A stretch of 32,000 bases of DNA from Haloquadratum walsbyi C23 (GCF_000237865.1 NC_017457.1:1-32000); one strand, 5' to 3'; shown: positions 11,429-32,000, counted from the first letter of the stretch. The notes: generated by a model from the letters alone, not told the origin. Translations and numbers: made by a program.

Positions 11429-11477
11429 ACGTGAGTAATATATGACCACTGTATTGAAACTTCGCCAGACGATTTCA

Positions 11478-11590
11478 TGAATACACTTCATGAATGTATG
11501 TGGTGAACACAACTAGTGAACATATGCAATGAATACACATCATGAACATGCTGAACAAATGTAGTGAACACAACTAATGAACAACGTAGC
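11478..11590. repeat. Array of nine TGAAYA-initiated iterons with 13-bp periodicity (candidate partition centromere or operator)
   Basis: TGAA starts at 11478, 11491, 11504, 11517, 11530, 11543, 11552, 11565 and 11578. Spacing is 13 bp except for one 9-bp unit. The unit TGAACACAACTA occurs twice (11504, 11565). The array lies about 50 bp upstream of parA. Confidence 0.7.
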
Positions 11591-16384: not shown

Positions 16385-16600
16385 CTCTCAAATGTCACTC
16401 AATGTTCCACATTCTTCAAACTGCGTTTCCACTTTCTCAGGATGATTGAGTCCAACCAGTACAACTGCCTTCTCATACGAGGTATCTGAACAATGTCCTT
16501 TTTACGCTCGTGAGGAGAACATCAACGACTTCGACTCTTGGATGAAATATGAGCTTGAGCGTAAGCTTAGTGAGCGAGGTTATCAGAACATCGTCGCTCG
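16385..16600 (-). pseudogene. Decayed homolog of the ParA-associated gene (10152-10556)
   Basis: The minus-strand translation GHCSDTSYEKAVVLVGLNHPEKVETQFEECGTLSDI* aligns with DVSLTDLREAIALVGLNHLNEVEAQLEEWGYGMKFEE*. Upstream, YFIQESKS aligns with LFLQEETKG. At least two in-frame stops interrupt it. Confidence 0.55.
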
Positions 16601-16973: not shown

Positions 16974-18110
16974 ATGATACCCGGCAAATCCACGGCTCCA
17001 AATGATGAAACCAATCTGGACGTCGCAGTCGATTCACGGATTGCTAGCCTTGATTCTGGTAACTATCGGGCGAACAACCGGGTAGTTCTCAAGACATTTT
17101 CAGAGTATCTGGACGATTATCAAGATACCACAGACCTCACAGAGCTGAGCATCATCGATTGTCGACGGTACGCTCAGCATCTACGGAAGAGAGTCCGTGA
17201 CGAAGATGATAACCTCTCAGCGGCTTCAGCCCATACAAATGGTCCATATTTCACCATCGTTCGAGCATTTCTCGGATGGTGCGTCGATGACGAACGGATC
17301 GAATCGAACCCTGCTCAACCGAATCGGGTGAAGGAAGAGCTTCCAGAATACCATGGCGATCACGACCGACAGTTTTGGTCAGTCAAGACACGAGAAGCAC
17401 TACTTGAATTTGTTGAGGATCGAACTCATGCTGCTCTGGAGGAATCAGGTGATGATAATGTCGAACGTGTATTTCGAGATCGGGCTGTCGTCACAGTGCT
17501 TGCTCTGACTGGAGCTCGAGGTGCCGAACTATTCTCGGATCCACGTGATGAACACCGGAACGGTCTCAGATGGAAAGATGTCAATCTCACGCAGGGTGTC
17601 ACCACTGTGTTCGGAAAGAATCGTAAGCGACAACAAATCCCTTTGACCAGCCGAGTCGTCGGCGCTCTTGAACAGTATAAATCGGTGCTGAATCCAGCAA
17701 GTGGAGACTGGCCACTATTCCCGACAGGTCACCACGCATCACTCACAGACGCTGCCAAGGAAGGTCTTGAATCGAAGGGGTGGAATTCTGAGGAAATTAA
17801 GACAGTGCTTGAAGAGTCGTTATCGATTGAAATACTCCACGAGTACGAAATCGCACCACCAGCACTTTCAAAAAATGGGGGGCGGTCCGTAATGAAACGA
17901 CTCTGTGAGGCAGCTGACATTGATATCGACGGAGAGTATCTCAAACCTCACGGTGGTCGACGAGGGCTCGGCAGCGATCTCTATGCTCAAGATGCAGAAC
18001 TCGCACAGGAACTTCTCCGGCATGAATCAATTGAAACAACCCACGAATCATATCGAGAGCAGAACGTCATTGAGCAGCGAGAACGTCTAGAACAGGCACT
18101 TGGTAAGTAA
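16974..18110 (+). CDS. Tyrosine recombinase / integrase (XerC/D-like, phage-integrase family)
   Basis: Box I is VLALTGARGAELF. Also present are KPHGGRRGLGSDLY (H-x-x-R), LLRHESIETT (second His) and HESY (nucleophile Tyr). The N-terminal SAM-like core-binding region includes CRRYAQHLRK. Confidence 0.9.
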   Translation: MIPGKSTAPNDETNLDVAVDSRIASLDSGNYRANNRVVLKTFSEYLDDYQDTTDLTELSIIDCRRYAQHLRKRVRDEDDNLSAASAHTNGPYFTIVRAFLGWCVDDERIESNPAQPNRVKEELPEYHGDHDRQFWSVKTREALLEFVEDRTHAALEESGDDNVERVFRDRAVVTVLALTGARGAELFSDPRDEHRNGLRWKDVNLTQGVTTVFGKNRKRQQIPLTSRVVGALEQYKSVLNPASGDWPLFPTGHHASLTDAAKEGLESKGWNSEEIKTVLEESLSIEILHEYEIAPPALSKNGGRSVMKRLCEAADIDIDGEYLKPHGGRRGLGSDLYAQDAELAQELLRHESIETTHESYREQNVIEQRERLEQALGK

Positions 18111-18314: not shown

Positions 18315-18928
18315 TTATGAAAATCATATACTTAAGTTTTATCACACTAAAATTCACGCTTAGCCAGCACACATGTACATTAATGGCAGAACGGGACGAG
18401 CAGACTATAACAAAAATATACCAGCTTAATGTGCTCGTTAATTTATATCTCGACCACCGTTTAATAGGGAAAGATCAGTACCTATGAGCTGCTGGAGCTG
18501 ATATTATAGCACGGATATTCTATGCCTAATAGATGACAAATGACGAATTATTAGACAAATATGATTTATCAGTTTACCTTTGGTCGGTATATTACCTCAG
18601 TATAGTCAGCCGAATAATAGTATAATGATAGTACGGGTGTTATATTATTTTGTTAAATTAATCATAAATTTGATATTTTATGTGAATCGGGAGCTGTAAA
18701 ATCAGTCTCTTTTGATAATTTAGATATATCTATACTTTTATTATATCATTTATTTTTGAATCTACAGCGCCTACGGATAAATTATATTATTCATCGATGT
18801 ATGTGATTATAATTATCCACGCAGCGAAATAAGCCATGTCCGACGATTAACTATATTGATATTGTCACTTTTTATTGATGAATTCTATGTAAGCTGGATA
18901 TCGATTCTATACTTACTCCCTACGATAT

Positions 18929-18973
18929 CTTATGTAAAATATAAGTAGTATTACTGTAACTTTGTTACATAAG
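18929..18973. promoter_or_regulatory. Palindromic element copy 3: CTTATGTAA-N27-TTACATAAG (right arm TTGTTACATAAGG)
   Basis: It has the same geometry as copy 2. The ATG of the downstream gene (18977) lies 2 nt after ...CATAAGG, and an AT-rich stretch separates the half-sites. Confidence 0.55.
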
Positions 18974-19694: not shown

Positions 19695-21359
19695 ATGACC
19701 TCCTCCGACTCAGACAATCCGACTGATGAGGCTGATATTAAACCAGGTGCTGATCTCTCCGGTATGAACTTCACGGATACTGACCTCTCCGGTGTAGATC
19801 TGTACAATTCTGACCTCTCCGACGCTCGTCTTCTCAACGCAGATCTTTCCGGTGCTAACCTCACCAACGCTAATCTCGCTGGTGCTGACCTTTCGGCTGC
19901 GTCATTGAGCGAAGCTACACTCTCCGGCGCTAATATTTCTGACGCCAACCTCACTGGAACAGACCTCTCTAGTGCTGATCTTACAGACACTGACTTGTCC
20001 AGTGCTTACCTTCTTGACGCAGATTTGACGGGTGCCTCTCTCTCTGGTGCATGTGTGACAGATGCCCAGTTGGCAGACGCTCAGTTTGAGTACACAATTC
20101 CACATGATGAGGATGTCTCACCTCGTGATATCATCCCACAAGCTGTTCTCTCCGGCGCTGACCTCTCCACAGCTGATCTTTCCGGTGCCGACCTTTCCAA
20201 TTCTGCCCTCACACATGCTGATCTCTCCAACGCCAGTCTCCGCAATGCAAGTCTCAGGGACGCCGATCTCTCTGACACTAATCTCAGTGGAGCTAGTCTT
20301 AGAGATGTTGATTTCTCTGGTGCTGACCTCTCAGGTGTTGATTTGACACTCGCTTCAGCTATCGATGCCGACTTCTCAGGTGCCGATCTAACCAACGCTG
20401 ATCTCTCCAACGCCGACCTGTTTGACCCACGACTCACCGACGTTTCAGGCGCCGACCTCACAAACACTGATCTTCGCATGGCTAATCTCTCTAATACTAG
20501 TCTTATTCAGGCGGATCTTTCTGATTCCGACCTTTCTAGTACTGATCTTACTGACGCTGATCTCCGTGATGCCAATCTCGCAGGTGCTAATCTCACTGAC
20601 GCTGACCTCTCTAGCGGATCCAGACCTCTTACAAAAACTGATCTTTCCGGTGCCGACCTCACCGGTGCTACCCTCACGCAAGCCAATCTTACCGGTGCCT
20701 CTGTTTCTGATGCAGATATAACAGACGCTCAGTTGACAGACGCCCGATTTGAATACACAATTCCACAGGATGAAGCCATCTTGCCTCACAATATTATCCC
20801 ACAAACTATTCTATCCGGCGGTAATCTCTCTGACGCATATCTCAGGGAAGCTGACCTTGCTGACGCTCGCCTTTCAAACGCATCTCTTCAGGGCGCAGAT
20901 CTCATACGTGCTAACCTTTCCGGAGCAAATCTCTCGAGTGCCGACCTCTCCAACGCTAATCTCAACCAAGCTGACTTCTCCGGCAGTAGTCTCACGGACG
21001 CTGATTTCACACACACCGATCTCATAGATGCTGATCTCTCTGAGGCTAACCTCTCTAGGGCAAATCTCTCGAATGCTGACCTCAATCGAACAAATCTCTC
21101 AGATGTTGATCTCTCTGATGCCTCCCTGAAAAAAGCCGATTTGTCTCAAACCAACCTCTCCGGTGCGAACCTCACAGATGCTGACCTCCCTGGGACAAAT
21201 CTCTCGAATGCTGATCTCTCGGGAGCTTCCCTGAACAAAACTGATCTGTCTGACATTGATTTCACAAATACTACAGTTTGGATTTCTTCTGGCGGCAAGA
21301 AATGTATTGCATCGAAACAATTGCTAGCTGAAAAAGGGGCGATTGTTGATATGAAATAA
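19695..21359 (+). CDS. Pentapeptide-repeat protein (A[DN]LxX repeats, three blocks)
   Basis: Nearly the whole 554 aa follows a 5-residue periodicity (ADLSG, ANLTN, TDLSS and so on). It is interrupted twice by a conserved linker, DAQL(A/T)DA(Q/R)FEYTIP(H/Q)DE...IIPQ..LSG. No signal peptide is present. Confidence 0.95.
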   Translation: MTSSDSDNPTDEADIKPGADLSGMNFTDTDLSGVDLYNSDLSDARLLNADLSGANLTNANLAGADLSAASLSEATLSGANISDANLTGTDLSSADLTDTDLSSAYLLDADLTGASLSGACVTDAQLADAQFEYTIPHDEDVSPRDIIPQAVLSGADLSTADLSGADLSNSALTHADLSNASLRNASLRDADLSDTNLSGASLRDVDFSGADLSGVDLTLASAIDADFSGADLTNADLSNADLFDPRLTDVSGADLTNTDLRMANLSNTSLIQADLSDSDLSSTDLTDADLRDANLAGANLTDADLSSGSRPLTKTDLSGADLTGATLTQANLTGASVSDADITDAQLTDARFEYTIPQDEAILPHNIIPQTILSGGNLSDAYLREADLADARLSNASLQGADLIRANLSGANLSSADLSNANLNQADFSGSSLTDADFTHTDLIDADLSEANLSRANLSNADLNRTNLSDVDLSDASLKKADLSQTNLSGANLTDADLPGTNLSNADLSGASLNKTDLSDIDFTNTTVWISSGGKKCIASKQLLAEKGAIVDMK

Positions 21360-21576: not shown

Positions 21577-22149
21577 ATGGAGATAGAATATATATACCAC
21601 TCAGCATATGTTGAAGATATTCCGAGCATCAAACAAGGAGGACTGCGACCATCTAACCAGACATACCGGGATGATATTGAGACGAAACTACAGGTAGTGG
21701 CTTATAAAAATGAAATTTGCCTCCCAATAAATCGTCAAGATTGTGTCTTCTGTTATCCCTCGCTTCGACATGGAGTTAATATGGGATCATTCGCAACTAA
21801 GGATGCAGGTTCGCTTCGTTTACAACTCTTGCATGAAGGACTGGTCGTGATTGATGCAAAACCATTTCAAGAAAAACTGTACGTGGGAGATTTTGATCTC
21901 TTTTCTGATATTATTGAATTCTCAATCGTAGGATCGGACGATTATGAGAGGGCATTAATGATATACGCTGAATCCCTTACCCCAGTCGCCGAATTCAGCT
22001 CTATTCAGGAAATCGATGCCGAATTCAGTATCCCTGAGATATTAGTTGAGGGGAAGATTGGAGCCGACCAAGTTGTTGAGGTAATACTTCGCAAGGAGAT
22101 ACTGGGAAGTGGGTATTTCACATCATACTCAGCATTACCATCTGAGTAA
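21577..22149 (+). CDS. DarT-like (DUF4433-like) ADP-ribosyltransferase-fold protein
   Basis: Three segments match my recollection of DarT. IYHSAYVEDIPSIKQGGL matches IYHITHIDNL..IL..G.L, DCVFCYPS matches DYVPFYFCPRS, and PEILVEGKIGADQVVEVIL matches the catalytic QAEFLV...I..I motif. The size (190 aa) also fits. Assigned from memory, not from a search. Confidence 0.6.
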   Translation: MEIEYIYHSAYVEDIPSIKQGGLRPSNQTYRDDIETKLQVVAYKNEICLPINRQDCVFCYPSLRHGVNMGSFATKDAGSLRLQLLHEGLVVIDAKPFQEKLYVGDFDLFSDIIEFSIVGSDDYERALMIYAESLTPVAEFSSIQEIDAEFSIPEILVEGKIGADQVVEVILRKEILGSGYFTSYSALPSE

Positions 22150-22153
22150 GTCA
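22012..22153 (+). repeat. Direct repeat copy A (native 3' end of the DarT-like gene)
   Basis: It aligns with 28915-29052 at roughly four-fifths nucleotide identity by eye. Its last roughly 75 bp also align with 30818-30892. Confidence 0.8.
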
Positions 22154-22421
22154 CATACTGGATCATAATCTCGACGAATATGGCTATTGATTGCTCAGAG
22201 ATGATATTCTGGAGCGATATGAGTGTGTGGTCTAGTAATAAATCGACTCGGATTCTGACCATGTGAGTTATAAACAATGAGAAAGCCATTAGTATAGATT
22301 GACCGTGTACAGATGATCAAGTCTCTGAATCTATCTATTCCCGGTCACGCCACACAAACTGCCCTGGAACTATGTCATACCGGGAAAGGAATATACCCCT
22401 GTGCTGAGTCAATTAATAAAT

Positions 22422-24140
22422 ATGAGTGGGAGGACGCCGACTATCGATACGAAATGGAATGATCTAACAACAGTGCATGAAAAACGTCGAGAGACAATTC
22501 AAGACCAGATTAAAGATTTTGACGACCCTGGTCAACGGGTGCCAGCAACATATGTAATCGGAGCAATTGGAGCAGGAAAAACCCAGCTTATGATGCATGC
22601 CTTTCGATATGCTTGGGCGTACCAAAACAAACCAGCTCTGTACGTGACCTTGGGAAAATTGATTGACGATCTCGAAGATCAAGTCGGTATTTCCAATTCA
22701 GAGGAGCAGCTAACTTCCCAAGTGTATTTATATAATTGGATAGAGGACAGATGTAAAGACGAGTTAGATACTATTAGAGCTAAAATAGATCGAAATGAGA
22801 AATTTGATCAAAATCAGTATCTTCCAAACGCACGTTCTTCTAATCCGCAGGAGTATTTTGAGCAAATAGAGGGAAATTATGATGCTGACAGTTTCGATTA
22901 TGACGAACTGACCATTGAACATGAAGATATCTCAGACATCGCTCATAAGAAGGATTCAATCGTTCTATTGATCGACGAAATGGAGGAAAGCTATCCTCGT
23001 CTGGAGGGTCTCATTGATCAAACAACAGGACCACTGAGGGAGGTCGTCACTGGTATAGGGAATCAAGAACCACCGTTCTACTTAATTGGGGCTTTTGGAT
23101 ATGCGAGTGTACAAGAAATTGGTCATGCAGAATTTCGTCGAGTAACTCCTGTTTCCCTTCCGATTTTACACCCTGATGATCGAATTAGTGAACTGTTTGG
23201 TGAGAATTTGGAGTATCAACAAGAAAATTTCGCTTGGTGGATGTCAAGGGGTCGACCAGGGTGGATTAATATTGCTTTGCAAAGCCAAGCCAGTGCTCTA
23301 AATGGTGGAATCAATAAGACTGATGACCAGCTACGAGAGATACCAGACGCTATGTCACGTGTTAATATGATCGATCTAGAGTCCATGGACCGGAGATTAA
23401 ATAAATTTACCAACGAAATCAGAGATTTCATTAGCTATCTTCTCCTGCAACCGGGTCCCCATCATATAGGTGATTTTACTGAGACTGAGAAGGTCCGCCA
23501 ATATATGAAGTCTGAGGCTCCGCCAGTGTTGTGTGCACCCAAAACAAGTGGAGTTGATAAGATCCACTCAGCATTCCTCGCTGGTATAAAGAACACATCA
23601 ATTTACACTAGTTCTGTTTCCTCGGATATCCTTCGACGGTATGCAAGGAGAGTGTTGAGAGGAATAGCAAATTCTGCAGGGGAAATTGTGGCGGGAAACG
23701 CAAATGTTCCCACGTACCGCAAGGGTCAGAGAACACATGAATTAATACTTTCCCCACTTTGTGAACGCATGCATGATATCGCCCTAGAGGAGGTTAATGA
23801 AGAAAGTGAATCAGAAACAATAGATTTTTTATATAAATTAGCTCAGATGACCCGTTCAACTCCCACGGAGGATATATCTCAAGACTTTGCAGATATGTTT
23901 AACCAATTTACAAAATACGGACATAACAGTGTAGACCAGGAAATGTATGTTTCAATCGCACCTAAAACATTAATTACTGCTTTTCCTAGTTTTGTAACCA
24001 ATCCACAGCTGGATTTCGCTGGGTCCGCTCGTAATAGAAAAGAACAGCTCACTGGACTAGTCGATAAAGTAAATCGAATTGATGAGATCGACGAACGTCT
24101 CAAAGACTTTGGAAAAATTCTACAGGAAGATCCGAGATGA
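22422..24140 (+). CDS. P-loop ATPase, first gene of the four-gene operon
   Basis: Walker A is VIGAIGAGKTQL (about 22560-22586) and Walker B is SIVLLIDEMEE (about 22958-22990). The track ORF starts at GTG 22401. I prefer ATG 22422 because an AATATA TATA-like box lies about 30 bp upstream of it. No known family recognised beyond the P-loop. Confidence 0.85.
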   Translation: MSGRTPTIDTKWNDLTTVHEKRRETIQDQIKDFDDPGQRVPATYVIGAIGAGKTQLMMHAFRYAWAYQNKPALYVTLGKLIDDLEDQVGISNSEEQLTSQVYLYNWIEDRCKDELDTIRAKIDRNEKFDQNQYLPNARSSNPQEYFEQIEGNYDADSFDYDELTIEHEDISDIAHKKDSIVLLIDEMEESYPRLEGLIDQTTGPLREVVTGIGNQEPPFYLIGAFGYASVQEIGHAEFRRVTPVSLPILHPDDRISELFGENLEYQQENFAWWMSRGRPGWINIALQSQASALNGGINKTDDQLREIPDAMSRVNMIDLESMDRRLNKFTNEIRDFISYLLLQPGPHHIGDFTETEKVRQYMKSEAPPVLCAPKTSGVDKIHSAFLAGIKNTSIYTSSVSSDILRRYARRVLRGIANSAGEIVAGNANVPTYRKGQRTHELILSPLCERMHDIALEEVNEESESETIDFLYKLAQMTRSTPTEDISQDFADMFNQFTKYGHNSVDQEMYVSIAPKTLITAFPSFVTNPQLDFAGSARNRKEQLTGLVDKVNRIDEIDERLKDFGKILQEDPR

Positions 24141-25825
24141 AGACCAGCGTTTACCCTATCCCATGTGGTGAAGGAAGCATAGAGGAAGTAGTAGACCCTT
24201 TTTTAGAAGCAGAAATCAATCAACGGGCGTTTTCAAAAGATGATCTGTTCATGATTCTATTACTTAATCCAAGCACATCGGAGTATGAAGGAACTAATAA
24301 AAATGCTGATTATAAAGATATCGTCACAACTCATATAAAAAGTAAGGAGTCTCGGATTCGAATAGCATATGAACTTGATAAGCTGACCGTTGCGCTCTTA
24401 GATGAGCGCCGGCTCAGTAACTTCGCAATAAGTTTGCTCTACAACGTTCTCGAACAAAATCCGGTTGCTGACCCGACCAGTGTCATGACTGATGAGCAGA
24501 ATCTGACAGATGAAGATATTCGAAAAGTCGATTATTATTTGCCAAAAATAAATGATCAAGTTCAAGATCTTATTACGGAGCAACAGCAGGAGTTTGAAAA
24601 TCAAATGTCCTCGCTGTTACCAGTCTCACCGAATAATAAAATAGCTTCTAATTTATATCGTCGGCTGAGCGATAATATACAGAGCGATGGAGCTATTATC
24701 GACTATCTCATTCTTACCGCAGCAGCTGACGAAGATCGAGAGGGGGTCCAGTCTCTACTAGGGTCGATACGGAACATAGATCTTGAAAAGAAGCTACTTT
24801 CAGGAGATTATACCTCTAATATTAGTGGATACCAACGTATAATACAAAATTCATACAATAAAAAACAATCAGAGTTCTTTGATGACTTTGAGACTGGTAT
24901 AGATTTATATCGTGATAGCACTACGAGTGCCGAGCTTCTACGAATTTTGCGGGAGCTTGATTCTGATATCTCGATAAACTCCGAGCAGAACCAAAGTAGA
25001 TCAGCATACCAATATGAACCAACTTTGACACAATTACTAACAGCACAGATAGATGGAAATAATCAGATTATTAAATGGATTCTACAAGCAGTCAATATTA
25101 TTCGTCTTATTCAAGATAATGAAAGATCTGTATTAGACTCTTATCAAACTCAACATACTGAACTGGAAAGTACATTAGATGAGATTGATGAGAATTTTAA
25201 TAGGATTGATGAATTACAGGAAAATTATCCGAAGGGTAAAATCTCATATGATGATACCACAATCGATCATGCTCGAGAAATGATCCGTGAGGTGAAACAG
25301 AGTAACTCTTTATTAATCAAGTTTATATTTGGATATGATATGGATTTCCGGACGAGTGCCTACACCACTGCTCAAACTCGATTGAGAGATACAAAGTCGA
25401 GAATAGATAACGGGATAGGCAAACTCCGGAACCAAACGATAGAAATAAACAAATTGCAAACGAGCCTCGAGAATGAGTTAGATACAATTGACCAATCATA
25501 TGAGGATATCGAAAGAACATCTGTGGTAGTTGACATTCCTGAGCGAGATGATATAAAGAGGGTATTTCAGGATGAATGGTTGAGTGAAATTGAATCGCTC
25601 AAGCGAGAGCTACCAATGCTTGACTTTGGGTCACAGAGCGAAGATATACGACGGACTCAGCAAGAGGACTGGCAACAGGTGATTGCTGAGACTCGGAACG
25701 AGTTACAATCGTTGAGAGCATTCGCTGATGACCTGTCTAAATTTAGTGACCAAATTAACCAAATCGAGAATATTAGGGATAACACTAGACAAGAATTTCA
25801 GCAAATCCATGATAAAATTCAATAA
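24137..25825 (+). CDS. Large coiled-coil protein of unknown family, second gene of the operon
   Basis: The start overlaps the upstream stop (ATGA). The 562 aa are rich in E, Q, D, N and L with long heptad-like stretches, especially in the C-terminal roughly 250 aa. No enzymatic motif found. Confidence 0.85.
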   Translation: MKTSVYPIPCGEGSIEEVVDPFLEAEINQRAFSKDDLFMILLLNPSTSEYEGTNKNADYKDIVTTHIKSKESRIRIAYELDKLTVALLDERRLSNFAISLLYNVLEQNPVADPTSVMTDEQNLTDEDIRKVDYYLPKINDQVQDLITEQQQEFENQMSSLLPVSPNNKIASNLYRRLSDNIQSDGAIIDYLILTAAADEDREGVQSLLGSIRNIDLEKKLLSGDYTSNISGYQRIIQNSYNKKQSEFFDDFETGIDLYRDSTTSAELLRILRELDSDISINSEQNQSRSAYQYEPTLTQLLTAQIDGNNQIIKWILQAVNIIRLIQDNERSVLDSYQTQHTELESTLDEIDENFNRIDELQENYPKGKISYDDTTIDHAREMIREVKQSNSLLIKFIFGYDMDFRTSAYTTAQTRLRDTKSRIDNGIGKLRNQTIEINKLQTSLENELDTIDQSYEDIERTSVVVDIPERDDIKRVFQDEWLSEIESLKRELPMLDFGSQSEDIRRTQQEDWQQVIAETRNELQSLRAFADDLSKFSDQINQIENIRDNTRQEFQQIHDKIQ

Positions 25826-25828
25826 GAT

Positions 25829-28207
25829 ATGACGGACCCAATGGAGAATTTATCGGGTATTATGAATGGCATCGATGTAAAAACCAACAAAGAATATCAC
25901 AAGGAAGCTAACGAGGCTGTTACAGAGACAAAAGAAGAAATAGAGAATTGGTTTACTGATCAACTGGTATCTGAACAAAAAGAAAGTGTTCGCATAGCTT
26001 ATAATCAAGCATTAGAACAGGACATTCTGGACTTTTGTGATAAAGAACCGATGGGTCTAGGTGAATATCCAGATGAAGTTAATAATATAAACCAGCGCTT
26101 ACTGGATATTCTTCGTAATCCAGAGGCACAATCACTCGCAGACAGGGTTGATAAATGGTTCATAAATGCTGACATTGATGTGCTTGATTCTAATGAGAGA
26201 AACAGTCTAATAGAGATATTTAAATCCGATATAGATGGGTGTAAAAACGAGATTGAGCAAATTATCCAGAGTCATAACAGTCTCCAAGATATGCTTCCAA
26301 TAAAAAATAGGCAAGTGAATCAGCTGCTCCGTAATGCAATCACTGAGTCATCGTCTATTAGTGATCTCCGCTCCATTAGGGAGCAATTAGAGATGATTGT
26401 GCCATTGTGGTCTTATCCATGGACAATTGACTCGCAGTATGAGGTGGCAACAGCGATCGAAACAGAAGTCAAGTTGATTCTCGAGGAGTACATTAAAGAA
26501 GTAGTCACTAGGTCAGACAACTTCCGGCAACTTACTACAGTCATTAATGAAAAGTTTAGTGAGGGATCTAAACATTTAGATGACATACGTAAGGGGTGGT
26601 CACGGGTCGAGAGAGAAATTAGGCAACTCAACGATCTTGAAGAGATTAATTCGATACCGGTTGCAATAGAAACTCGAGCACAGAGTGCGGCTGAAAACGC
26701 AAGTAGTATCCAATCGTTAGTCAATGAAATAAATGATTTAGAGAGTGATGTCTCAATTCTATATGACATGGCATCGGTTTCACTTGACCGATTTCATCCC
26801 ACTGCTGATGTCTCCTCTAGTTCGTTTATTAATACTGCAGAGTTAATTACAGAATATGAGTCAGCGCATGAAATTCGCAAGTCATCTCTTGCGGCGGAGA
26901 CCTCTTCAAAAATAACTCACATTAAACCTGAGTTCGATAAACATGTGACAAATGCTCGGGACATAATGGAACAGACCGAGAATAGTCTTCGGAGTAAAAT
27001 TAATTCTGTGCGGAAATTAGCACAGAATTTTGACTTGCGGGATGACTCAGACAAGCTGAGTGATATATTATCAGATTTAAGTAAAACTAATAAAATCGAT
27101 GATTATATTAATATCTCTAATCGTAGTGGGAGCTTATTCAAAAAAATACAAACGAAGATTAAAACTGAACGGCTCGCTGAGCTTGAGTTGGTAGTATTTG
27201 AATGGCTTACAGATCAATCAGACAATCCACACGAGATTGTAGACAATTTAGAGGCAATCAGGACAGTGCAGTCATACCCATGGAATCTTGATTCAAATCA
27301 GACCGGGATCAAGATGATTGAGGACTGTGTGAATGATATGATAGGAGACGTCCTAAAATCGCTTCTCGAACAACTTGAATCTCCAGATGAATTGGTCACC
27401 CTTATTGATGAGAAATTTGAATCCGTGGGTAAGTCACTCTCGCAACTGGAACAAATAGGAATAGTATGCAAAGTCGAAGCCTTGAGCGATACAGAGATAG
27501 TTGAGGACCCGCTCCGTCCAGCAAATCTAAGAATACGAAATGCACTGGATAATGCAGGTTCACTTCGAAATCTGATCAAGAGACTCGAGGATGTAGCCGA
27601 AAGTATCTGTATGTTAAATGACATTGCCTCTAGATCACTCGATAAGTTCATATCTCGCACCGATGAGGTACCGGATAATCTGGAAAGCGAAGTTCTTGAT
27701 TTGCATGATCAATATCAGAAAGCTATCGATATCCGAGAGGAAGTGTTTAATCTCGATGCTCCTGAACTGCCGACAGCTCATAATGAATTTGAGAATCACA
27801 TTGACAATGCGAAGAATATATTAGAAAAATTGCAAAAAAAAACCCGACAGAAAATTCGGTTATCTGAAGAATTAGCGAGGGAGTTTGAACTAAAAGGAGA
27901 ATTGAAACAATTAGATAGGATCTCCAAAAAATTCGTGAATGTAAGCACAGTCAAGGATACTATTCGGACATACTCAAAAGTAATCGATGTTTACGACCAA
28001 ATACAAGAGATAGTTCATGACACACTTTCATCAACACAGAAAGGTATCTTAGAATGGATTATACGAAGAGATGATGACGTAGTATTGAACTCTGACGTTC
28101 AGAGGGAGTTAGCCACAGAGTTCGGCTGTGAGGAAACGGAGATCGTGGACCACTTCCTCTCTCTCCAAGAGGACGGATTTTTAGACTTCATCGTTAAAAA
28201 ACCATAG
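25829..28207 (+). CDS. Large coiled-coil protein with an internal roughly 289-aa tandem duplication and a C-terminal wHTH-like domain, third gene of the operon
   Basis: It starts 3 nt after the upstream stop. Two modules each open with SYPW(T/N)(I/L)DS (nt 26411 and 27272) and share collinear motifs. The C-terminus reads QKGILEWIIRRDDDVVLNSDVQRELATEFGCEETEIVDHFLSLQEDGFLDF, which looks like a winged helix. Confidence 0.85.
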   Translation: MTDPMENLSGIMNGIDVKTNKEYHKEANEAVTETKEEIENWFTDQLVSEQKESVRIAYNQALEQDILDFCDKEPMGLGEYPDEVNNINQRLLDILRNPEAQSLADRVDKWFINADIDVLDSNERNSLIEIFKSDIDGCKNEIEQIIQSHNSLQDMLPIKNRQVNQLLRNAITESSSISDLRSIREQLEMIVPLWSYPWTIDSQYEVATAIETEVKLILEEYIKEVVTRSDNFRQLTTVINEKFSEGSKHLDDIRKGWSRVEREIRQLNDLEEINSIPVAIETRAQSAAENASSIQSLVNEINDLESDVSILYDMASVSLDRFHPTADVSSSSFINTAELITEYESAHEIRKSSLAAETSSKITHIKPEFDKHVTNARDIMEQTENSLRSKINSVRKLAQNFDLRDDSDKLSDILSDLSKTNKIDDYINISNRSGSLFKKIQTKIKTERLAELELVVFEWLTDQSDNPHEIVDNLEAIRTVQSYPWNLDSNQTGIKMIEDCVNDMIGDVLKSLLEQLESPDELVTLIDEKFESVGKSLSQLEQIGIVCKVEALSDTEIVEDPLRPANLRIRNALDNAGSLRNLIKRLEDVAESICMLNDIASRSLDKFISRTDEVPDNLESEVLDLHDQYQKAIDIREEVFNLDAPELPTAHNEFENHIDNAKNILEKLQKKTRQKIRLSEELAREFELKGELKQLDRISKKFVNVSTVKDTIRTYSKVIDVYDQIQEIVHDTLSSTQKGILEWIIRRDDDVVLNSDVQRELATEFGCEETEIVDHFLSLQEDGFLDFIVKKP

Positions 28208-28208
28208 C

Positions 28209-28619
28209 ATGGTTGAATACAACCACGATATGCTCGTCCGAAAACTGGATGAGAAATTGAGAGACAAATTTGAGACTGCAGAATTAATCGCCCGAAAGGG
28301 TGGATCTGAATTTAAATTAGGTAGATTACGAATTGAGCGACGACATTTCTCTGGTGAGTCTGGTGCTCCCGATTTCGTTCTTTTTGCGGATTCTCTCCAG
28401 CTTCTTAATAAACAATTTGCGGGTTCAGTGCCACTGGCTCTTCTGGAAATAGAAAAAACAATTGGAGATTCTATGCATGATCTTCGCAGTTATGCAGATT
28501 CAGATCGTGAGCAGTTACCGGTGCTGCTCATCACAGAATCGGAAATGGGTGATCGTATTAAGACGATCCCGGGAAAAAGCACATTTAGAATATTGACCAA
28601 AAATTATGATGAAATATGA
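28209..28619 (+). CDS. Small PD-(D/E)xK-like protein (putative nuclease), fourth gene of the operon
   Basis: It starts 1 nt after the upstream stop. APDFVLFAD (about 28364-28385) and, about 25 residues later, LALLEIEKT (about 28441-28461) resemble a restriction-endonuclease-fold core. The E-I-E-K spacing is not the canonical ExK. Confidence 0.7.
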   Translation: MVEYNHDMLVRKLDEKLRDKFETAELIARKGGSEFKLGRLRIERRHFSGESGAPDFVLFADSLQLLNKQFAGSVPLALLEIEKTIGDSMHDLRSYADSDREQLPVLLITESEMGDRIKTIPGKSTFRILTKNYDEI

Positions 28620-28803
28620 ATAAATTTTGAATTCAGCATTCATATTCATCTGAGAAGAGCGTACAAATATATGTGAGTCGATTTATAAACTGGAGCAATT
28701 GAGAGCGGAGGAAAGCGATATACAATTACGCAGACGAACTCACCCGTTGTTACTGCGTATCAGAGGAAACAATGCAGGTGAAATTCATTATCATCGACAT
28801 TGA

Positions 28804-29052
28804 CAGATAAAAAAGATCAATATCGATACCGAAGGAGAGCACATTGCCATTGATGATGATACAGGAGATGAGTCGATCAATCTTGACGCTGACAGCAAAG
28901 AGAGGCTCATTACAATCGATGCTGAATGCCGAAGCCCTGAGATATTACTCGAGGGAAAGATTGGAGCCGACCAGATTGTTGAGGTAACATTCCGTAAGGA
29001 GATACTCGGAAGTGGGTACTTTGCATCATACCCGGCACTGCCTTCTGAATAA
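28804..29052 (+). pseudogene. Start-less gene fragment carrying direct-repeat copy B (3' end homologous to the DarT-like gene)
   Basis: My own translation ends ...RLITIDAECRSPEILLEGKIGADQIVEVTFRKEILGSGYFASYPALPSE*. This frame has no ATG, GTG or TTG after the stop at 28801. A short ATG ORF (28772) in another frame abuts it. Confidence 0.6.
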
Positions 29053-29122
29053 ATCATCACTTGGAGGGGTCCGTAAAGTCAGAAGGATAGAATACCCCAC
29101 CCCCCGTGTGCGATATGAAATT
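28915..29122 (+). repeat. Direct repeat copy B (coding part plus about 70 bp of shared downstream sequence)
   Basis: 28915-29052 aligns with copy A. 28975-29122 aligns with copy C, including the post-stop stretch TCATCACTTGGAG.GGTCCG...CCCACCCCCCGTGTGCGATATGAAATT. Confidence 0.8.
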
Positions 29123-29550
29123 AAAAAGAGAGTGAAGTGTAATCGATGTTCAACCGCTTCTACTCTGAATTGTGAATTACTGTCACCGAGATATCGGTAG
29201 TAGAACTCATACTCCTGTCCGTTGGTGAGAATACCCAATCTGACATTCTCGTTCTGTAGATATGCAGTTAGTTGTTCCCGATGCGTGGAAGTGAGTGTAG
29301 TGTCAAGTCCTCTCGCTTCAACAAAAGCAACGGGGTCGCCCGCCGAGTATCAGAGCATAATCGAGTTTGAATGTTTTACCGAACGCCTTCACCGAGCACT
29401 CTAGTTCGGTGTTAGTCGGGATCTCCAGTCAAAAAGTTCGATAAAATCGTTTAGTATGGACGCCTTCGTGGTTGCTTCCCCCATCTGCGGTGAGTCTTCA
29501 ATATCAGACTGAGCCGAGTCCACGTGCTCTTTTATCGACGCGGAATCCAT
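29100..29550 (-). pseudogene. HsdR_N-like / PD-(D/E)xK restriction-endonuclease-fold gene, disrupted
   Basis: Minus-strand frames read MDSAS...ILNDFIELFDWRSRLTPN*, then ...KLDYALILGG, then (+1 shift in a G-run) GDPVAFVEARGLDTTL...QLTAYLQNENVRLGILTNGQEYEFYY. The D...E-A-(K/R)...Q...GI(L/V)TNG..W/Y.FY pattern is typical of the HsdR N-terminal nuclease-like domain. There is at least one in-frame stop and at least two frameshifts. Confidence 0.5.
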
Positions 29551-29678
29551 TATTACGAGATACATTTACTGCATGACTGTAAGAAGGTAAGGTACGGGAC
29601 GGGGTTAGAGTATCATACGATACTTTCCACACCTACACAGGACTCACTCATTACAGAGAACCCACTAATCGCTCGGCA

Positions 29679-29909
29679 CTAAGCAATCACAGACCACATT
29701 CCAGCGATAACTGCGATGAGAGTCAGCACTACCGTAGACCACACTATTCGGTCGTCAGGAATTGAATCAGACGAATTGGATGAGAGAACGGCTTCAGATA
29801 CTACACTGAATACCATCGCAATTCCGCTAATTGACAGGAGTATTGGAACGAGGGACACTTCCCCCGAAATTACACTATTCAGACCCTGAACCCGAGAATA
29901 CCGCCACAA
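29679..29909 (-). CDS. Small putative membrane protein (two hydrophobic helices)
   Basis: TTG-start 76-aa ORF with two TM-like stretches (LVPILLSISGIAMVFSVV and VVLTLIAVIAGMWSVIA). There is no other support. Confidence 0.3.
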   Translation of the reverse strand: MWRYSRVQGLNSVISGEVSLVPILLSISGIAMVFSVVSEAVLSSNSSDSIPDDRIVWSTVVLTLIAVIAGMWSVIA

Positions 29910-30220
29910 ACGGTAATCGAGCCGTTATAGAGGAGGGATTTGCCCATACTTACAGACTGGTCAGACCAGTATAAAGATCTTTTCTCCCCTCATAGTTAGT
30001 ATTCAATCCGCATACAGGGTCTCACGGCTGATCCGACTGAGAGATTGTGAAATAAATACTGTGATAACCCTCCTATGACGCCCTGAAATGTGGGATGGCA
30101 CATATTAGAGAGGGGTGTTCGTGGTCTCAAACTCTCTCAGTACTGCTGAATTACGGACTGCCTCTGAACAGAGAAACCGACGAGTCATACAGTAGCTCCT
30201 CCGAAGCTGCTAAAAGACAG

Positions 30221-30508
30221 TTAGAATGACTGTTGTTCTCTGGCGTTGTGAGTTGAACCTCGATCGTCGTAGTTTGCTCTCCCAACGCTCCCCTGTGGTG
30301 CAAGAGACATCAGGGTATGATATAGGTCATCACTCGACTCAAACGTGTCAGGTGGGTCATCAAGGAGATCAAGCATCTGATCAAGTGTCGTTTCAGAGCC
30401 GTCCTGAAATTCGATTGTCACATTTTCACACCTGTTTGCGATGTCGTCTATGCTGGCTGGGTACTCGCAATCGCACAACTCGGTCAGTGCTTCCTCAAGA
30501 TCTGCCAT
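30221..30508 (-). CDS. Small acidic protein, DUF2795/DUF5789-like
   Basis: LEEALTELCDCEYPASIDDIANRCENVTIEFQDGSETTLDQMLDLL...FESSDDLYHTLMSL matches my recollection of this family's pattern ('YP.t.deL....g...ie...g.etl.evl.....f.s.del'). Confidence 0.55.
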   Translation of the reverse strand: MADLEEALTELCDCEYPASIDDIANRCENVTIEFQDGSETTLDQMLDLLDDPPDTFESSDDLYHTLMSLAPQGSVGRANYDDRGSTHNAREQQSF

Positions 30509-30817
30509 ATACTATAGTTATGTATCTGACACACGTATGAATGTACCGATGTGCAGAATAACCCAGAATTACATCAGCATCTTGGTTTCTAAGAGATTAA
30601 AATCATACATAAATATAGTATTATCCAATATAATATGTCGTTCGACAATTAGTAGAGCATAGTATGCTCTGCTATCTGAGTAGGCATCAGATGAATCATG
30701 TGTGTCTTTGCTCTCTGCGTGAGACGGGGTAAAAAAACCACGACCCGACTCCAAGCGTTGCCAACTCAGAGAGAAACGGTGGAATCTTTAGATATACTGC
30801 ATCGTAACTGTCATACT

Positions 30818-30962
30818 GTTGAGGTAATACTCCGTAAGGAGATACTCGGGAGTGGATACTTTGCATCATACCCGGCACTACCTTCTGAGTAAGTCATCAC
30901 TTGGAGAGGTCCGCAGAGTCAAAAGTATAGGATATCCCACCCCCCGTGTGCGATATGAAATT
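30818..30962 (+). repeat. Direct repeat copy C (last roughly 24 codons of the DarT-like gene plus about 70 bp downstream)
   Basis: It encodes ...VEVILRKEILGSGYFASYPALPSE* and is followed by the same downstream stretch as copy B. The upstream part of track ORF 30698-30892 has no homology to the 190-aa gene. Confidence 0.75.
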
Positions 30963-30987: not shown

Positions 30988-32000
30988 TCAACTTCCCTCA
31001 AAAAAATTGTTTATTTGCGCATTGACCACAGATTTGATAAGATCTCCTTCGTGTTTAGCATCCTCAAGTCGAAAGTCAGTTTCGAGAGTCTCAACCACCA
31101 CTTCTGAGTCGTCAATAAACGTGTATTCCTTATGTACACCACTACCGAAACCACGTCCCCGTTTTTGTGACGTGACAAGATTATACGTCTCAGCCTCGTT
31201 CATGTATCTCAGATAAGATTCACGTGATTTTTCCTCAACATCTAAAATATCGACGAGAAACTGATACACTCGATAAGCAACTGTACTGGGAATAGCGTCC
31301 AAATTGCGCTGTGAGTAGACAGAAGAAACAGCAGTAGCGTAGAGTGAAAGCTTCTTTTGGGTCGATAGTCCCTGCATTTGGGTCAGTGTTCGATCCCGTC
31401 GAGCTTCTTTCTGGGCATGACGAACATGATTCTCATGAACCATATCCTCTGTTTCACGGTCGGCGATTTCTCCTGCCTTCCGGAATAAATCGATTGCTTT
31501 TCGGGCGTCACCATGATCCTGAGCGGCGAGAGCAGCGCTTAACGGGATGATTCCACCGTTAAGCACATCATCTTGGTATGCATCTTTACGACGTTTAAGA
31601 ATCGCTTGTAATTGATCTGCGTCGTAGTCGGAGAAGATGACGTCCTGTGGATTGAAAGAACTCTCCGCTCGTCCGTCAAGATTCTGCATGAATCGTGGAT
31701 CATTCGTAATTGCAGCGACGGATACGTGTCCTCCAATCCGACCAAGGTGTGATGCTCGAGATAATTGATAAAGCAGCTTCGAGTATGCCGGTTCATCATC
31801 TGGATTACGTCGTCGACCCAGCAAGAGGTCAATCTCGTCAAGAATGATGATGATTGAATCAAGGTTGTTGCTCAAGATCTCATAAAATCGATTTAGCTTC
31901 TGGTCAGTCGAGACACCACTCTCAGGGACACCAATATCGACACCAGCCTTCTGGGCAGCATTCTCTACGAGTCGGTAGATAGCCCGGTCATGAGAGCTGA
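30988..32000 (-). CDS. orc1: Orc1/Cdc6 replication initiator, 5'-partial (continues beyond the window)
   Basis: Walker B is IIIILDEIDLL, sensor-1 is AITND, and GDARKAIDLFRKAG is the sensor-2/lid helix. The C-terminus is a winged helix. The frame stays open upstream of the track's TTG (31875) to the window edge and reads ...SHDRAIYRLVENAAQKAGVDIGVPESGVSTDQKLNRFYEIL, which is typical of Orc1/Cdc6. Confidence 0.9.
   Translation of the reverse strand, partial: SSHDRAIYRLVENAAQKAGVDIGVPESGVSTDQKLNRFYEILSNNLDSIIIILDEIDLLLGRRRNPDDEPAYSKLLYQLSRASHLGRIGGHVSVAAITNDPRFMQNLDGRAESSFNPQDVIFSDYDADQLQAILKRRKDAYQDDVLNGGIIPLSAALAAQDHGDARKAIDLFRKAGEIADRETEDMVHENHVRHAQKEARRDRTLTQMQGLSTQKKLSLYATAVSSVYSQRNLDAIPSTVAYRVYQFLVDILDVEEKSRESYLRYMNEAETYNLVTSQKRGRGFGSGVHKEYTFIDDSEVVVETLETDFRLEDAKHEGDLIKSVVNAQINNFFEGS

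What the first reader, a model, noticed from the sequence alone, without database searches (positions are those of the whole stretch)
22012..30962. Three direct copies of the 3' end of the DarT-like gene delimit two cargo segments
Copy A (22012-22153) is the native gene end. Copy B (28915-29122) is a start-less fragment encoding the same ...PEIL(V/L)EGKIGADQ(V/I)VEV..RKEILGSGYF.SY.ALPSE* tail. Copy C (30818-30962) keeps the last roughly 24 codons. B and C also share about 70 bp beyond the stop codon that A lacks.

The 6.8-kb A-B interval is exactly the four-gene operon. The 1.7-kb B-C interval holds a broken nuclease gene and two small genes. This is the pattern left when elements integrate into, or cassettes are exchanged at, the 3' end of a gene and regenerate it. 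Here, however, neither interval contains an integrase. The repeats also include the catalytic-Glu motif, so recombination among them could swap C-termini.
Basis: partly seen in the sequence, partly recalled or inferred. Interest (0 to 1): 0.7.

Follow-up and report, generated by a model that had tools for sequence, protein, structure and literature searches.

The report
Gene-end relics beside a plasmid origin
Three diverged copies of the end of one gene, two of them still joined to a replication-origin protein-binding site, mark where related DNA molecules recombined next to an origin of the Haloquadratum walsbyi plasmid PL100; this looks like an ordinary recombination scar, not a new kind of mobile element.

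Summary
The three direct copies are real: A 22011-22153, B 28914-29122, C 30817-30962. Identities are A/B 83%, B/C 90%, A/C 85%. The window is H. walsbyi C23 plasmid PL100.

The gene is an ADP-ribosyltransferase-fold protein (Tpt1/DarT/PARP-like) but not a demonstrable DarT. The extra ~70 bp shared by B and C is a 43-nt lineage-specific spacer plus a 27-nt ORB-like box. That box belongs to the adjacent orc1/cdc6 origin and is conserved in about 17 haloarchaeal genera.

Related contigs lack the cargo: L002 has gene-ORB-cdc6, and L010 is an A/B hybrid with no operon, no E2 and no cdc6. Differences among the copies are mostly synonymous, so the copies came from functional alleles of other lineages rather than from a duplication in place. 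A and B each behave as coherent alleles, whereas L010 is the mosaic. Four different sequences follow the ORB end, and two of these junctions truncate genes.

Best reading (about 0.5): recombination among related replicons that share the gene-end/ORB module, then trimming. The repeats now mediate deletions, a process already documented in this species. An integrase-driven cassette system is not excluded (about 0.15-0.2) but has no specific support.

The A-B cargo is a module whose homologs sit inside haloarchaeal DISARM loci.

The parts
19695..21359 (+). Pentapeptide-repeat protein gene. It is the conserved upstream neighbour of the ART-fold gene in the Haloquadratum alleles.
   Evidence: Pfam Pentapeptide E 1.6e-122. 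The same neighbour occurs in L001 and L010. The 211-aa upstream gene in L002 is weakly similar.
21577..22149 (+). Complete 190-aa ADP-ribosyltransferase-fold gene (allele A).
   Evidence: No Pfam or PADLOC hit on its own. A 58-sequence profile hits Tpt1/KptA at 1.7e-6, DarT1 at 1.5e-3 and PARP15 at 0.03. The AF2 model has pLDDT 88. Top Foldseek hits are all ARTs: PltA, DarT1, KptA, pertussis S1. H8 is invariant and E154 nearly invariant.
22011..22153 (+). Copy A: the native 3' end of allele A (last 46 codons, the stop, and 4 nt). It has no spacer or ORB after it.
22073..22086 (+). TTGTTGAGGTAATA: the interval that contains the A/B switch in L010 and the left edge of C's homology (equivalent to B 28976-28989 and C 30817-30829). 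It is either a candidate crossover site or just one of about five identity blocks.
   Evidence: Alignment A2 and per-position comparison. The chance of coincidence is about 0.1-0.2, so this is not significant.
22154..28913 (+). Cargo E1: four-gene operon. Genes are a P-loop ATPase of 579 aa (= Hqrw_5021) at 22401-24140, a 562-aa protein at 24137-25825, a 792-aa protein at 25829-28207 and a 136-aa protein at 28209-28619, plus non-coding flanks.
   Evidence: 100% identity to Hqrw_5021 of PL100. The proteins are orphans in Pfam, PADLOC, NCBIfam and PHROGs. Homologs of the first three genes are embedded in DISARM loci. L052 homology covers only 22375-28623.
28914..29122 (+). Copy B: a start-less relic of a second allele. 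It comprises the last 46 codons (28914-29052), a 43-nt spacer (29053-29095) and the ORB-like box (29096-29122).
   Evidence: B is about 91% identical to the L002 allele in both halves.
29123..30816 (-). Cargo E2: a decayed restriction-enzyme N-terminal (PD-(D/E)xK-like) pseudogene cut off at the ORB junction (about 29123-29565), a 76-aa ORF (29679-29909) and a DUF5789 gene (30221-30508).
   Evidence: Positions 29649-30011 are 86% identical to Haloarcula sinaiiensis plasmid pHsi540.
30817..30962 (+). Copy C: a relic of a third allele. It comprises the last 24 codons and the stop (30818-30892), the spacer (30893-30935) and the ORB-like box (30936-30962).
   Evidence: It is only 83-88% identical to L002, whereas the sequence from the ORB onwards is about 98% identical.
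30988..32000 (-). orc1/cdc6 gene (probably Hqrw_5030, OriP1). It is intact as far as the window's end.
   Evidence: Pfam Cdc6_lid and Cdc6_C. It is 97.9% aa identical to the L009 Cdc6 over residues 113-445. The paper states that Hqrw_5030 has ORB-like motifs upstream (PMC3119063).
16974..18110 (+). Tyrosine recombinase gene 3.5 kb upstream of the ART gene. It is context only; no link to the repeats was demonstrated.
   Evidence: Pfam Phage_integrase E 1e-13. It is unrelated to the integrase near the distant ART homologs. No repeat copy lies next to it.

Best explanation
In Haloquadratum replicons, a small ADP-ribosyltransferase-fold gene normally sits directly beside an orc1/cdc6 replication origin, in the order gene, ~43-nt spacer, ORB-like box, cdc6. 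PL100 carries pieces of three diverged alleles of this junction module.

Allele A is complete and is followed by a defence-type operon. Alleles B and C are 5'-truncated relics that are still joined to their spacer and ORB.

I infer that related replicons recombined with each other through this conserved module, either by cointegration or by modular exchange. The homology used would be the ~140 nt of gene end and the 22-27-nt ORB box, which is identical across genera. Deletions then trimmed the redundant gene copies and the neighbouring genes.

The resulting direct repeats now act as substrates for repeat-mediated deletion. A x B recombination removes the operon, and ORB x ORB recombination removes E2, C and cdc6. 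Together these give the L010 arrangement.

Shown: the repeats; their origin from functional diverged alleles; the ORB identity of the shared extension; the presence/absence variants; and the recurrent breakpoint at the ORB end. Inferred: the order of events, and that general recombination, not a dedicated recombinase, did the joining.
For: 1. The unit gene-spacer-ORB is conserved in four independent alleles (C/L002, B, L010, L055).
2. The 19-nt core of the box occurs in 39 loci from about 17 genera. In 29 of them it lies about 147 nt upstream of an Orc1/Cdc6 that is 76-84% identical, and in four a second copy lies just downstream of the gene. In L002 it forms direct copies plus an inverted copy around an AT-rich stretch next to cdc6. 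This matches published G-string ORBs and downstream ORB clusters (PMC1868953, PMC3936714).
3. Identity to L002 jumps from 83-88% to about 98% exactly at the ORB.
4. Four different sequences follow ...GATATGAAAT(T): cdc6, E2, the origin DUE side (L010) and a 5'-truncated pentapeptide ORF (L055). The E2 junction truncates a restriction-enzyme-like gene. That is what recombination at dispersed ORB copies plus deletions would produce, and it is not what clean cassette ends look like.
5. Differences among the copies are mostly synonymous: A-B pS 0.48 and pN 0.087; C-A 0.55 and 0.037; C-B 0.22 and 0.037. Intact alleles show the same pattern.
6. A and B are each equally distant from L002 in their left and right halves (0.85/0.80 and 0.92/0.90). 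L010 is mosaic: 1.00/0.82 to A, 0.84/0.97 to B and 0.85/0.93 to L002.
7. Repeat-mediated deletions with direct repeats of up to 139 and 734 bp are documented between H. walsbyi strains (PMC3119063).
8. There is no integrase in either interval. The operon in L052 has unrelated flanks, and no partial duplicates occur in distant family loci.
Against: The model needs several unobserved steps: two cointegration or exchange events and at least two trimming deletions. No contig with a full-length B-type or C-type allele in the predicted ancestral context was found. The allele-coherence contrast rests on about 60 sites per half and is not significant (Fisher p 0.07-0.24). C's left edge falls in the same 14-nt interval as the L010 crossover, which a site-specific mechanism would explain more naturally. 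The intact gene is preserved despite two events at its end, as gene-regenerating integrating elements would predict. The B-E2-C segment has no independent sequence confirmation.
Confidence: 0.5

Rival explanations
1. Site-specific integration or cassette capture. E1 and E2 entered as circles carrying an attP that mimics the gene's 3' end. A tyrosine recombinase supplied in trans (for example the PL100 integrase at 16974-18110) recombined them at a core near TTGTTGAGGTAA, regenerating the gene each time and leaving B and C as displaced ends.
For: The intact gene is preserved. The copies are diverged and therefore imported. The L010 switch and C's left edge fall in the same interval of 14 nt or less. 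Variants without the cargo exist. A tyrosine recombinase gene lies 3.5 kb upstream. A second start-less gene-end fragment lies about 500 nt from that integrase.
Against: Neither interval contains an integrase. No inverted-repeat core architecture is visible at the candidate site. The right boundaries differ: stop+4 for A, and the ORB end for B and C. The ORB end joins to four different partners and truncates genes. E2 is pseudogene debris of 1.7 kb. The operon's flanks in L052 are unrelated. No free or viral forms were found. The implied donor allele (B-left + A-right) and recipient allele (A-left + B-right) are less coherent than A and B themselves. The junction coincidence has a chance probability of about 0.1-0.2, because crossovers must fall in one of about five identity blocks.
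Confidence: 0.17
2. Campbell-type insertion by general homologous recombination. Each cargo entered as a circular DNA, such as an excised fragment or small replicon from a relative, that carried about 145 nt of the gene-end/ORB module. A single homologous crossover integrated it, and no dedicated recombinase was involved. On this view L010 would resemble the ancestral empty site.
For: Each cargo is flanked by a direct duplication of 143-146 nt, as a single crossover predicts. L010 equals A-left + B-right exactly. The copies are diverged.
Against: The same coherence argument applies: A and B look like contiguous natural alleles. A 1.84-kb E2 circle made of pseudogene debris is implausible unless it decayed later. 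Homology of 83% over 143 nt is a poor substrate. B's abrupt left edge still has to be explained as the donor's excision point.
Confidence: 0.2
3. Tandem duplication of the gene end in place, followed by neutral drift, with unrelated insertions between the copies.
For: The repeats are direct and lie in one locus.
Against: Differences among the copies are mostly synonymous, with pN/pS of 0.07-0.18, equal to that between intact alleles. Dead fragments drifting in place would not show this. B is closer to L002 (about 91%) and to L010's tail (97%) than to A (78-84%).
Confidence: 0.04
4. Assembly artefact in the PL100 record.
For: PL100 was finished by PCR across gaps (PMC3119063). Short-read contigs L054, L056 and L057 all break inside A or B.
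Against: The independent contig L001 reproduces A-operon-B at 99.3% identity. The copies differ by 10-17%, so they cannot be collapsed or duplicated reads.
Confidence: 0.02

Closest known systems
Repeat-mediated deletions/indels in Haloquadratum walsbyi (Dyall-Smith et al. 2011, PMC3119063)
   Same: [quoted passage not shown] The L010 versus PL100 comparison (A x B) and the L010 versus L002 comparison (ORB x ORB) fit this pattern. The paper reports repeats of up to 139 and 734 bp.
   Different: Here the repeats are diverged (83-90%) pieces of different alleles of one gene plus an ORB, not short identical repeats. They lie on plasmid PL100, which that chromosome comparison did not cover.
Haloarchaeal orc1/cdc6-adjacent origins with G-string ORBs, including ORB clusters downstream of cdc6 (Norais 2007 PMC1868953; Wu 2012 PMC3528665; Wu 2014 PMC3936714)
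   Same: The 27-nt box shared by B and C has the ORB architecture. It lies upstream and downstream of a conserved cdc6 and forms inverted copies around an AT-rich stretch. Such origin modules are known to move between replicons.
   Different: The box here also marks recombination breakpoints, and one copy (in B) is an orphan 1.8 kb from the cdc6-proximal copy. Binding by Cdc6 has not been tested.
Integrative elements that target the 3' end of a gene or tRNA and carry a replacement end (e.g. phage 21/e14 in icd; tandem accretion at tRNA genes) - from general knowledge
   Same: Both show an intact gene followed by cargo and then a displaced, start-less 3' fragment. Tandem arrays give several fragments.
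   Different: Here there is no integrase in the cargo and no defined att core. The cargo lacks element-like ends, and the right boundaries coincide with an origin box and truncate genes.
Orphan C-terminal cassettes of polymorphic toxins (Rhs/CdiA) - from general knowledge
   Same: Both have start-less 3' fragments of a toxin-like gene arrayed downstream of the full gene.
   Different: Here the fragments encode the same conserved tail rather than alternative toxin domains, and no immunity genes follow them. The only recombinant seen exchanges a ~20-residue tail outside the fold.
DarT / Tpt1 (KptA) / PARP-type ADP-ribosyltransferases
   Same: The fold and the N-terminal YH..(v)..iPsIl..GL NAD-binding motif are shared, as is a conserved Glu in a PE(I/V)L(V)EG strand.
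   Different: The protein has no Pfam DarT or Tpt1 hit. TM-scores are only 0.35-0.40. There is no DarG macrodomain partner; the conserved neighbour is a pentapeptide-repeat protein.

Membership tests
DarT (PF14487, ssDNA thymidine ADP-ribosyltransferase) | Match to the family profile above its threshold | tested here: not met
   There is no Pfam hit for the window protein even at E<=10. Only 2 of 58 distant relatives give weak DarT hits, best E 2.2e-4.
DarT (PF14487, ssDNA thymidine ADP-ribosyltransferase) | ADP-ribosyltransferase fold with a conserved NAD-site His and a catalytic Glu | tested here: met
   The AF2 model has pLDDT 88. All top Foldseek hits are ARTs, including DarT1 8baq and DarT 7omv, at TM 0.34-0.40. 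H8 is invariant and E154 nearly invariant. These features define the superfamily, not DarT specifically.
DarT (PF14487, ssDNA thymidine ADP-ribosyltransferase) | Adjacent DarG macrodomain antitoxin | tested here: not met
   The neighbours are a pentapeptide-repeat gene upstream and the ATPase operon or ORB/cdc6 downstream. No macrodomain was found.
Site-specific integrative element targeting a gene 3' end | Recombinase gene carried within the inserted segment | tested here: not met
   There is no integrase in 22154-28913 or 29123-30816. The nearest integrase is outside, at 16974-18110.
Site-specific integrative element targeting a gene 3' end | Common core at which all junctions occur | tested here: inconclusive
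   The L010 switch and C's left edge both fall in TTGTTGAGGTAATA. There are only two junctions, the chance probability is about 0.1-0.2, and the right boundaries differ.
Site-specific integrative element targeting a gene 3' end | Empty sites in relatives, and the element found elsewhere with a single attP | tested here: inconclusive
   Cargo-less variants exist (L002, L010), but L010 looks derived. The operon elsewhere (L052, L053, L058-L061) has unrelated flanks and no gene-end copy within reach. There are no hits in viral contigs.
Integron-like cassette array | intI next to attI, with cassettes each ending in an attC that has imperfect inverted repeats | tested here: not met
   The integrase is 3.5 kb away with three genes in between. 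The repeats are coding gene ends. The hairpin around the ORB is not conserved in other copies.
Polymorphic-toxin orphan C-terminal cassettes | Orphan fragments encode alternative toxin domains after a conserved junction motif, each followed by an immunity gene | tested here: not met
   B and C encode the same conserved tail as the full gene. No variable domain or immunity-like gene follows.
Haloarchaeal ORB of an orc1/cdc6-adjacent origin | Repeated box ending in a G-string, next to an orc1/cdc6 gene | tested here: met
   The reverse complement reads ...TTCATATCGCACACGGGGGGTG. In 29 of 39 genome loci the box lies about 147 nt upstream of a conserved Orc1/Cdc6, within a cluster of related boxes.
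Haloarchaeal ORB of an orc1/cdc6-adjacent origin | [quoted passage not shown] | tested here: met
   In L002, M4 (+, 12526) and M5 (-, 12916) flank about 370 nt that contains an AT-rich stretch. The equivalent PL100 region lies beyond the window.
Haloarchaeal ORB of an orc1/cdc6-adjacent origin | Bound by Orc1/Cdc6 and supports replication | not testable with these tools
   This needs ChIP, EMSA or an ARS assay.
Repeat-mediated deletion (H. walsbyi, PMC3119063) | [quoted passage not shown] | tested here: met
   L010 carries one A-left/B-right hybrid where PL100 has A-E1-B. L010 also carries one ORB where L002 has M1-cdc6-M2-M3-M4.

The most novel reading that the evidence does not exclude
The gene end (core near TTGTTGAGGTAA) together with the adjacent ORB could form a dedicated insertion platform beside a plasmid replication origin. 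On this reading, integrase-less cassettes such as the defence-type operon are captured and lost through a recombinase supplied in trans, or through origin-associated processing at the ORB end. It would be an archaeal analogue of integron or dif-module cassette exchange that regenerates a toxin-like ART gene each time.
Probability: 0.12. Interest if true: 0.65.

Novelty: new member of a known kind. Interest (0 to 1): 0.3.

Why it matters
The finding gives a concrete, sequence-level example of how a haloarchaeal megaplasmid is assembled and pruned next to one of its origins. Conserved origin-flanking sequence, here a gene end plus an ORB box that is identical across genera, serves as portable homology. 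Through it, diverged replicons exchange modules, including defence-type cargo, and then lose them again.

It also corrects two tempting readings: that this is a DarT toxin, and that this is an integrase-less integrating element. If ORB boxes are general recombination hotspots, that would help explain the known mobility of orc1/cdc6 origin modules among haloarchaeal replicons.

Taken alone, the structure is a recombination scar of a known type and is not a new mechanism.

Tried and rejected
- **Fourth copy or tRNA target:** none found.
- **The motif after the stop as a MITE, SMR or PATE end:** I considered this because L010 has an inverted pair. I rejected it because the motif sits at fixed distances around a conserved cdc6 in about 17 genera, and the L010 'element' is simply the origin DUE region of L002. 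The motif is absent from the H. walsbyi mobile-element tables.
- **Window 1235-aa ORF as the DISARM-associated ~1220-aa protein:** not homologous.
- **PL100 integrase related to the integrase near distant ART homologs:** no.
- **Known RNA in the repeats:** no Rfam hit at E<=0.1.
- **Phage and plasmid databases:** there is only a 36% homolog on a Halobaculum plasmid, and a 360-nt match of E2 to a Haloarcula plasmid; neither context was informative.
- **Viral contigs:** no relatives of the ART gene or the ATPase.
- **First AF2 model (11 sequences):** unusable at pLDDT 37.6. It was replaced by a model from 58 sequences.
- **Tail-only protein query to find other junction ORFs:** too short for the word index.
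- **Fetching PL100 beyond the window:** the look-up returned only a 2.7-kb contig.
- **DUF5789 protein of E2:** not on record elsewhere.
- **A register error in the first dN/dS script for C:** corrected.

Full report
**Identity of the window.** The P-loop ATPase at 22401-24140 is 100% identical to Hqrw_5021 of Haloquadratum walsbyi C23 plasmid PL100. The low GC content (about 42%), the acidic proteins, and the ParA, tyrosine recombinase and Orc1/Cdc6 genes fit that plasmid. The cdc6 gene at the window's end is probably Hqrw_5030. Dyall-Smith et al. 2011 associate that gene with origin OriP1 and with ORB-like motifs (PMC3119063).

Exactly three direct copies exist:
- A 22011-22153 matches B 28914-29056 at 83% over 143 nt.
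- B 28977-29122 matches C 30817-30962 at 90% over 146 nt.
- A matches C at 85% over 80 nt.

These matches are far beyond chance (E 5e-13 to 1.5e-47). A is the end of an intact 190-aa gene. B is a start-less fragment covering the last 46 codons, and its homology begins abruptly at IDAE. C covers the last 24 codons. B and C continue for 70 nt past the stop, and A does not.

The A-B interval is the four-gene operon plus 247 nt and 294 nt of flank. The B-C interval holds three minus-strand features: a decayed restriction-enzyme-N-terminal-like pseudogene (weak HSDR_N_2, MmeI_N and PDDEXK_3 hits), a 76-aa ORF and a DUF5789 gene. An independent metagenome contig (L001) reproduces A-operon-B at 99.3% identity.

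**What the gene is.** On its own, the 190-aa protein hits nothing in Pfam, PADLOC, NCBIfam or PHROGs. A profile of 58 relatives matches Tpt1/KptA RNA 2'-phosphotransferases (1.7e-6), DarT1 (1.5e-3) and PARP catalytic domains (0.03). An AlphaFold model built with that alignment is confident (pLDDT 88, pTM 0.82). Its best PDB matches are all ADP-ribosyltransferases, at modest TM-scores of 0.35-0.40. His8 is invariant and Glu154 nearly invariant. The protein therefore belongs to the ART superfamily. It is not shown to be a DarT, and no macrodomain partner is present. The last ~20 residues, the part exchanged in the one recombinant seen, form a low-confidence tail outside the fold.

**What the extra 70 bp is.** It ends in CCCACCCCCCGTGTGCGATATGAAATT. 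A genome-wide scan for the 19-nt core found 39 loci in about 17 haloarchaeal genera. In 29 of these the box lies about 147 nt upstream of a highly conserved Orc1/Cdc6 (76-84% aa identity), inside a cluster of related boxes. In four loci a second direct copy lies just past the gene's stop. In L002 four direct copies and one inverted copy surround cdc6 and an AT-rich stretch. Read on the other strand, the box ends in a G-string. That matches published haloarchaeal ORBs, and ORB clusters downstream of cdc6 are a described feature (PMC1868953, PMC3936714). The box is therefore an ORB-like element of the neighbouring origin and not part of the gene. The 43-nt spacer between the stop and the box is specific to the Haloquadratum locus.

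**Related arrangements.**
- L002/L009 (H. walsbyi J07HQW2) has gene, spacer, ORB and cdc6 with no cargo.
- L010 (Lake Tyrrell) has the pentapeptide gene and an A-type gene body (95.6% identical). Its 3' end switches to B-type within TTGTTGAGGTAATA, runs through the spacer and ORB, and joins directly to the sequence that follows the fourth ORB copy in L002. It therefore lacks E1, E2, C and cdc6.
- L055 is a fourth allele, in which the ORB is followed by a 5'-truncated pentapeptide ORF.

Gene-spacer-ORB is thus the conserved unit, and four different sequences follow the ORB end. Window identity to L002 jumps from 83-88% in C to about 98% from the ORB onwards, which is another breakpoint at the box.

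**How the copies arose.** Nei-Gojobori counts show mostly synonymous differences among the copies: A-B pS 0.48 and pN 0.087; C-A 0.55 and 0.037; C-B 0.22 and 0.037. This is indistinguishable from the pattern between intact alleles (L010-L002: 0.30 and 0.057). The copies therefore diverged as parts of functional genes in different lineages and were brought together later. Duplication in place followed by drift is rejected.

I then split the repeat at the candidate crossover. A is equally distant from L002 on both sides (0.85/0.80), and so is B (0.92/0.90). L010 is mosaic: 1.00/0.82 to A and 0.84/0.97 to B. This favours A and B being contiguous pieces of two natural alleles, with L010 as a derived A x B deletion product. 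It argues against L010 being the ancestral empty site of a Campbell-type insertion. The contrast is not statistically significant (p 0.07-0.24), so I treat it as a lean.

The E2 junction at the ORB cuts off what looks like the N-terminal domain of a large restriction enzyme, and the L055 junction truncates a pentapeptide gene. These are untidy joints, not cassette ends.

**Tests of the integrating-element reading.**
- Neither interval has an integrase.
- The PL100 integrase lies 3.5 kb upstream with three genes in between, has no repeat copy beside it, and is unrelated to the integrase near distant ART homologs.
- The operon in L052 (74% nt identity over 22375-28623) has unrelated flanks, although they stop a few nucleotides short of where A and B would lie.
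- Elsewhere the module sits inside DISARM loci with no gene-end copy.
- No viral or free form was found.
- Distant family loci have no partial duplicates.
- One point favours a specific site: C's left edge and the L010 switch fall in the same 14-nt interval. However, crossovers between 83%-identical repeats must fall in one of about five identity blocks, so the coincidence has a probability of about 0.1-0.2.

**Conclusion.** The most likely account (about 0.5) is that related replicons recombined through the conserved gene-end/ORB module beside the origin. Redundant copies were then trimmed, and the resulting direct repeats now drive deletions of the kind already documented in this species (PMC3119063). 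A Campbell-type homologous insertion (about 0.2) and a site-specific cassette mechanism (about 0.17) remain possible. Long-read population data and integrase assays would decide between them.

**Side result.** Homologs of the operon's first three genes are embedded in class-2 DISARM loci in at least three haloarchaeal lineages: DrmA 1e-166, DrmB 1.5e-46, DrmC 6e-17 and DrmMII 8.5e-70. The A-B cargo is therefore best described as a defence-associated module. In PL100 and L052 it stands alone and has gained a small extra gene.

Noticed in passing
window 22401-28619; L053, L058, L059-L061: Homologs (38-42% aa) of the operon's first three genes (P-loop ATPase of ~555 aa, then ~565-aa and ~505-aa proteins) are inserted inside class-2 DISARM-like loci in Halomicrobium, Natranaeroarchaeum and metagenome contigs. 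PADLOC identifies the neighbours as DrmA, DrmB, DrmC and DrmMII, and there is also a ~1220-aa protein with a faint DrmE_C hit. In PL100 and L052 the module stands alone, its third protein is longer (792 aa), and a 136-aa gene is added that reads by eye as PD-(D/E)xK-like but has no family hit. This is a candidate DISARM accessory or a new defence module.
   Followed up: partly
window 16385-16475 (minus strand) and 10152-10556 (minus strand): PL100 has a second start-less gene-end fragment. AVVLVGLNHPEKVETQFEECG copies the C-terminus (AIALVGLNHLNEVEAQLEEWG) of the 134-aa gene downstream of ParA. It lies about 500 nt left of the integrase start codon, between the 1235-aa gene and the integrase. 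It could be an att-type scar of that integrase.
   Followed up: partly
window 19695-21359 with 21577-22149; L001, L010, L002, L055: A pentapeptide-repeat protein gene always sits directly upstream of the ART-fold gene in the Haloquadratum alleles. In L055 a truncated pentapeptide ORF follows the ORB. Pentapeptide-repeat proteins can mimic DNA, so this pair might be a toxin/antitoxin-like couple for a nucleic-acid-targeting ART. This is pure speculation.
   Followed up: no
window 29096-29122: The ORB box attached to copy B is an orphan, 1.84 kb from the cdc6-proximal box of copy C. PL100 therefore has two boxes downstream of cdc6. Downstream ORB clusters are reported to restrain origin firing by titrating Cdc6 in Haloarcula hispanica (PMC3936714), so the extra box could affect copy-number control.
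   Followed up: no
window 18496-18961: An AT-rich non-coding stretch (GC about 34%) is 91% identical to L023 6103-6567 on the H. walsbyi J07HQW2 scaffold. It may be a small mobile or repeated element shared by plasmid and chromosome.
   Followed up: no
window 29649-30011: The 76-aa membrane-like ORF in E2 is 86% identical at DNA level to a hypothetical gene on Haloarcula sinaiiensis plasmid pHsi540 (NZ_CP073368.1). This suggests recent inter-genus transfer of this small piece.
   Followed up: partly
window 11491-11583: Four tandem ~32-nt repeats (TGAAC-rich) lie immediately upstream of the ParA gene (10553-11512, minus strand). They are probably centromere-like parS/iteron repeats.
   Followed up: no
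P0109 and P0064 (metagenome proteins): P0109 is another decayed start-less fragment of the Haloquadratum-type tail (…FRNPKISFEGNIRADYIIEVIFRKEILRSGY…), from an unknown context. P0064 is an ART homolog fused to an IS6-type transposase fragment. Their contexts could not be fetched.
   Followed up: no
L003-L008: Distant 199-aa family members (48% identity) sit in a conserved element together with a short integrase, an HFX_2341_N-like 508-aa protein and a DUF8102 protein. It is possibly an integrated plasmid or provirus of another haloarchaeon.
   Followed up: no
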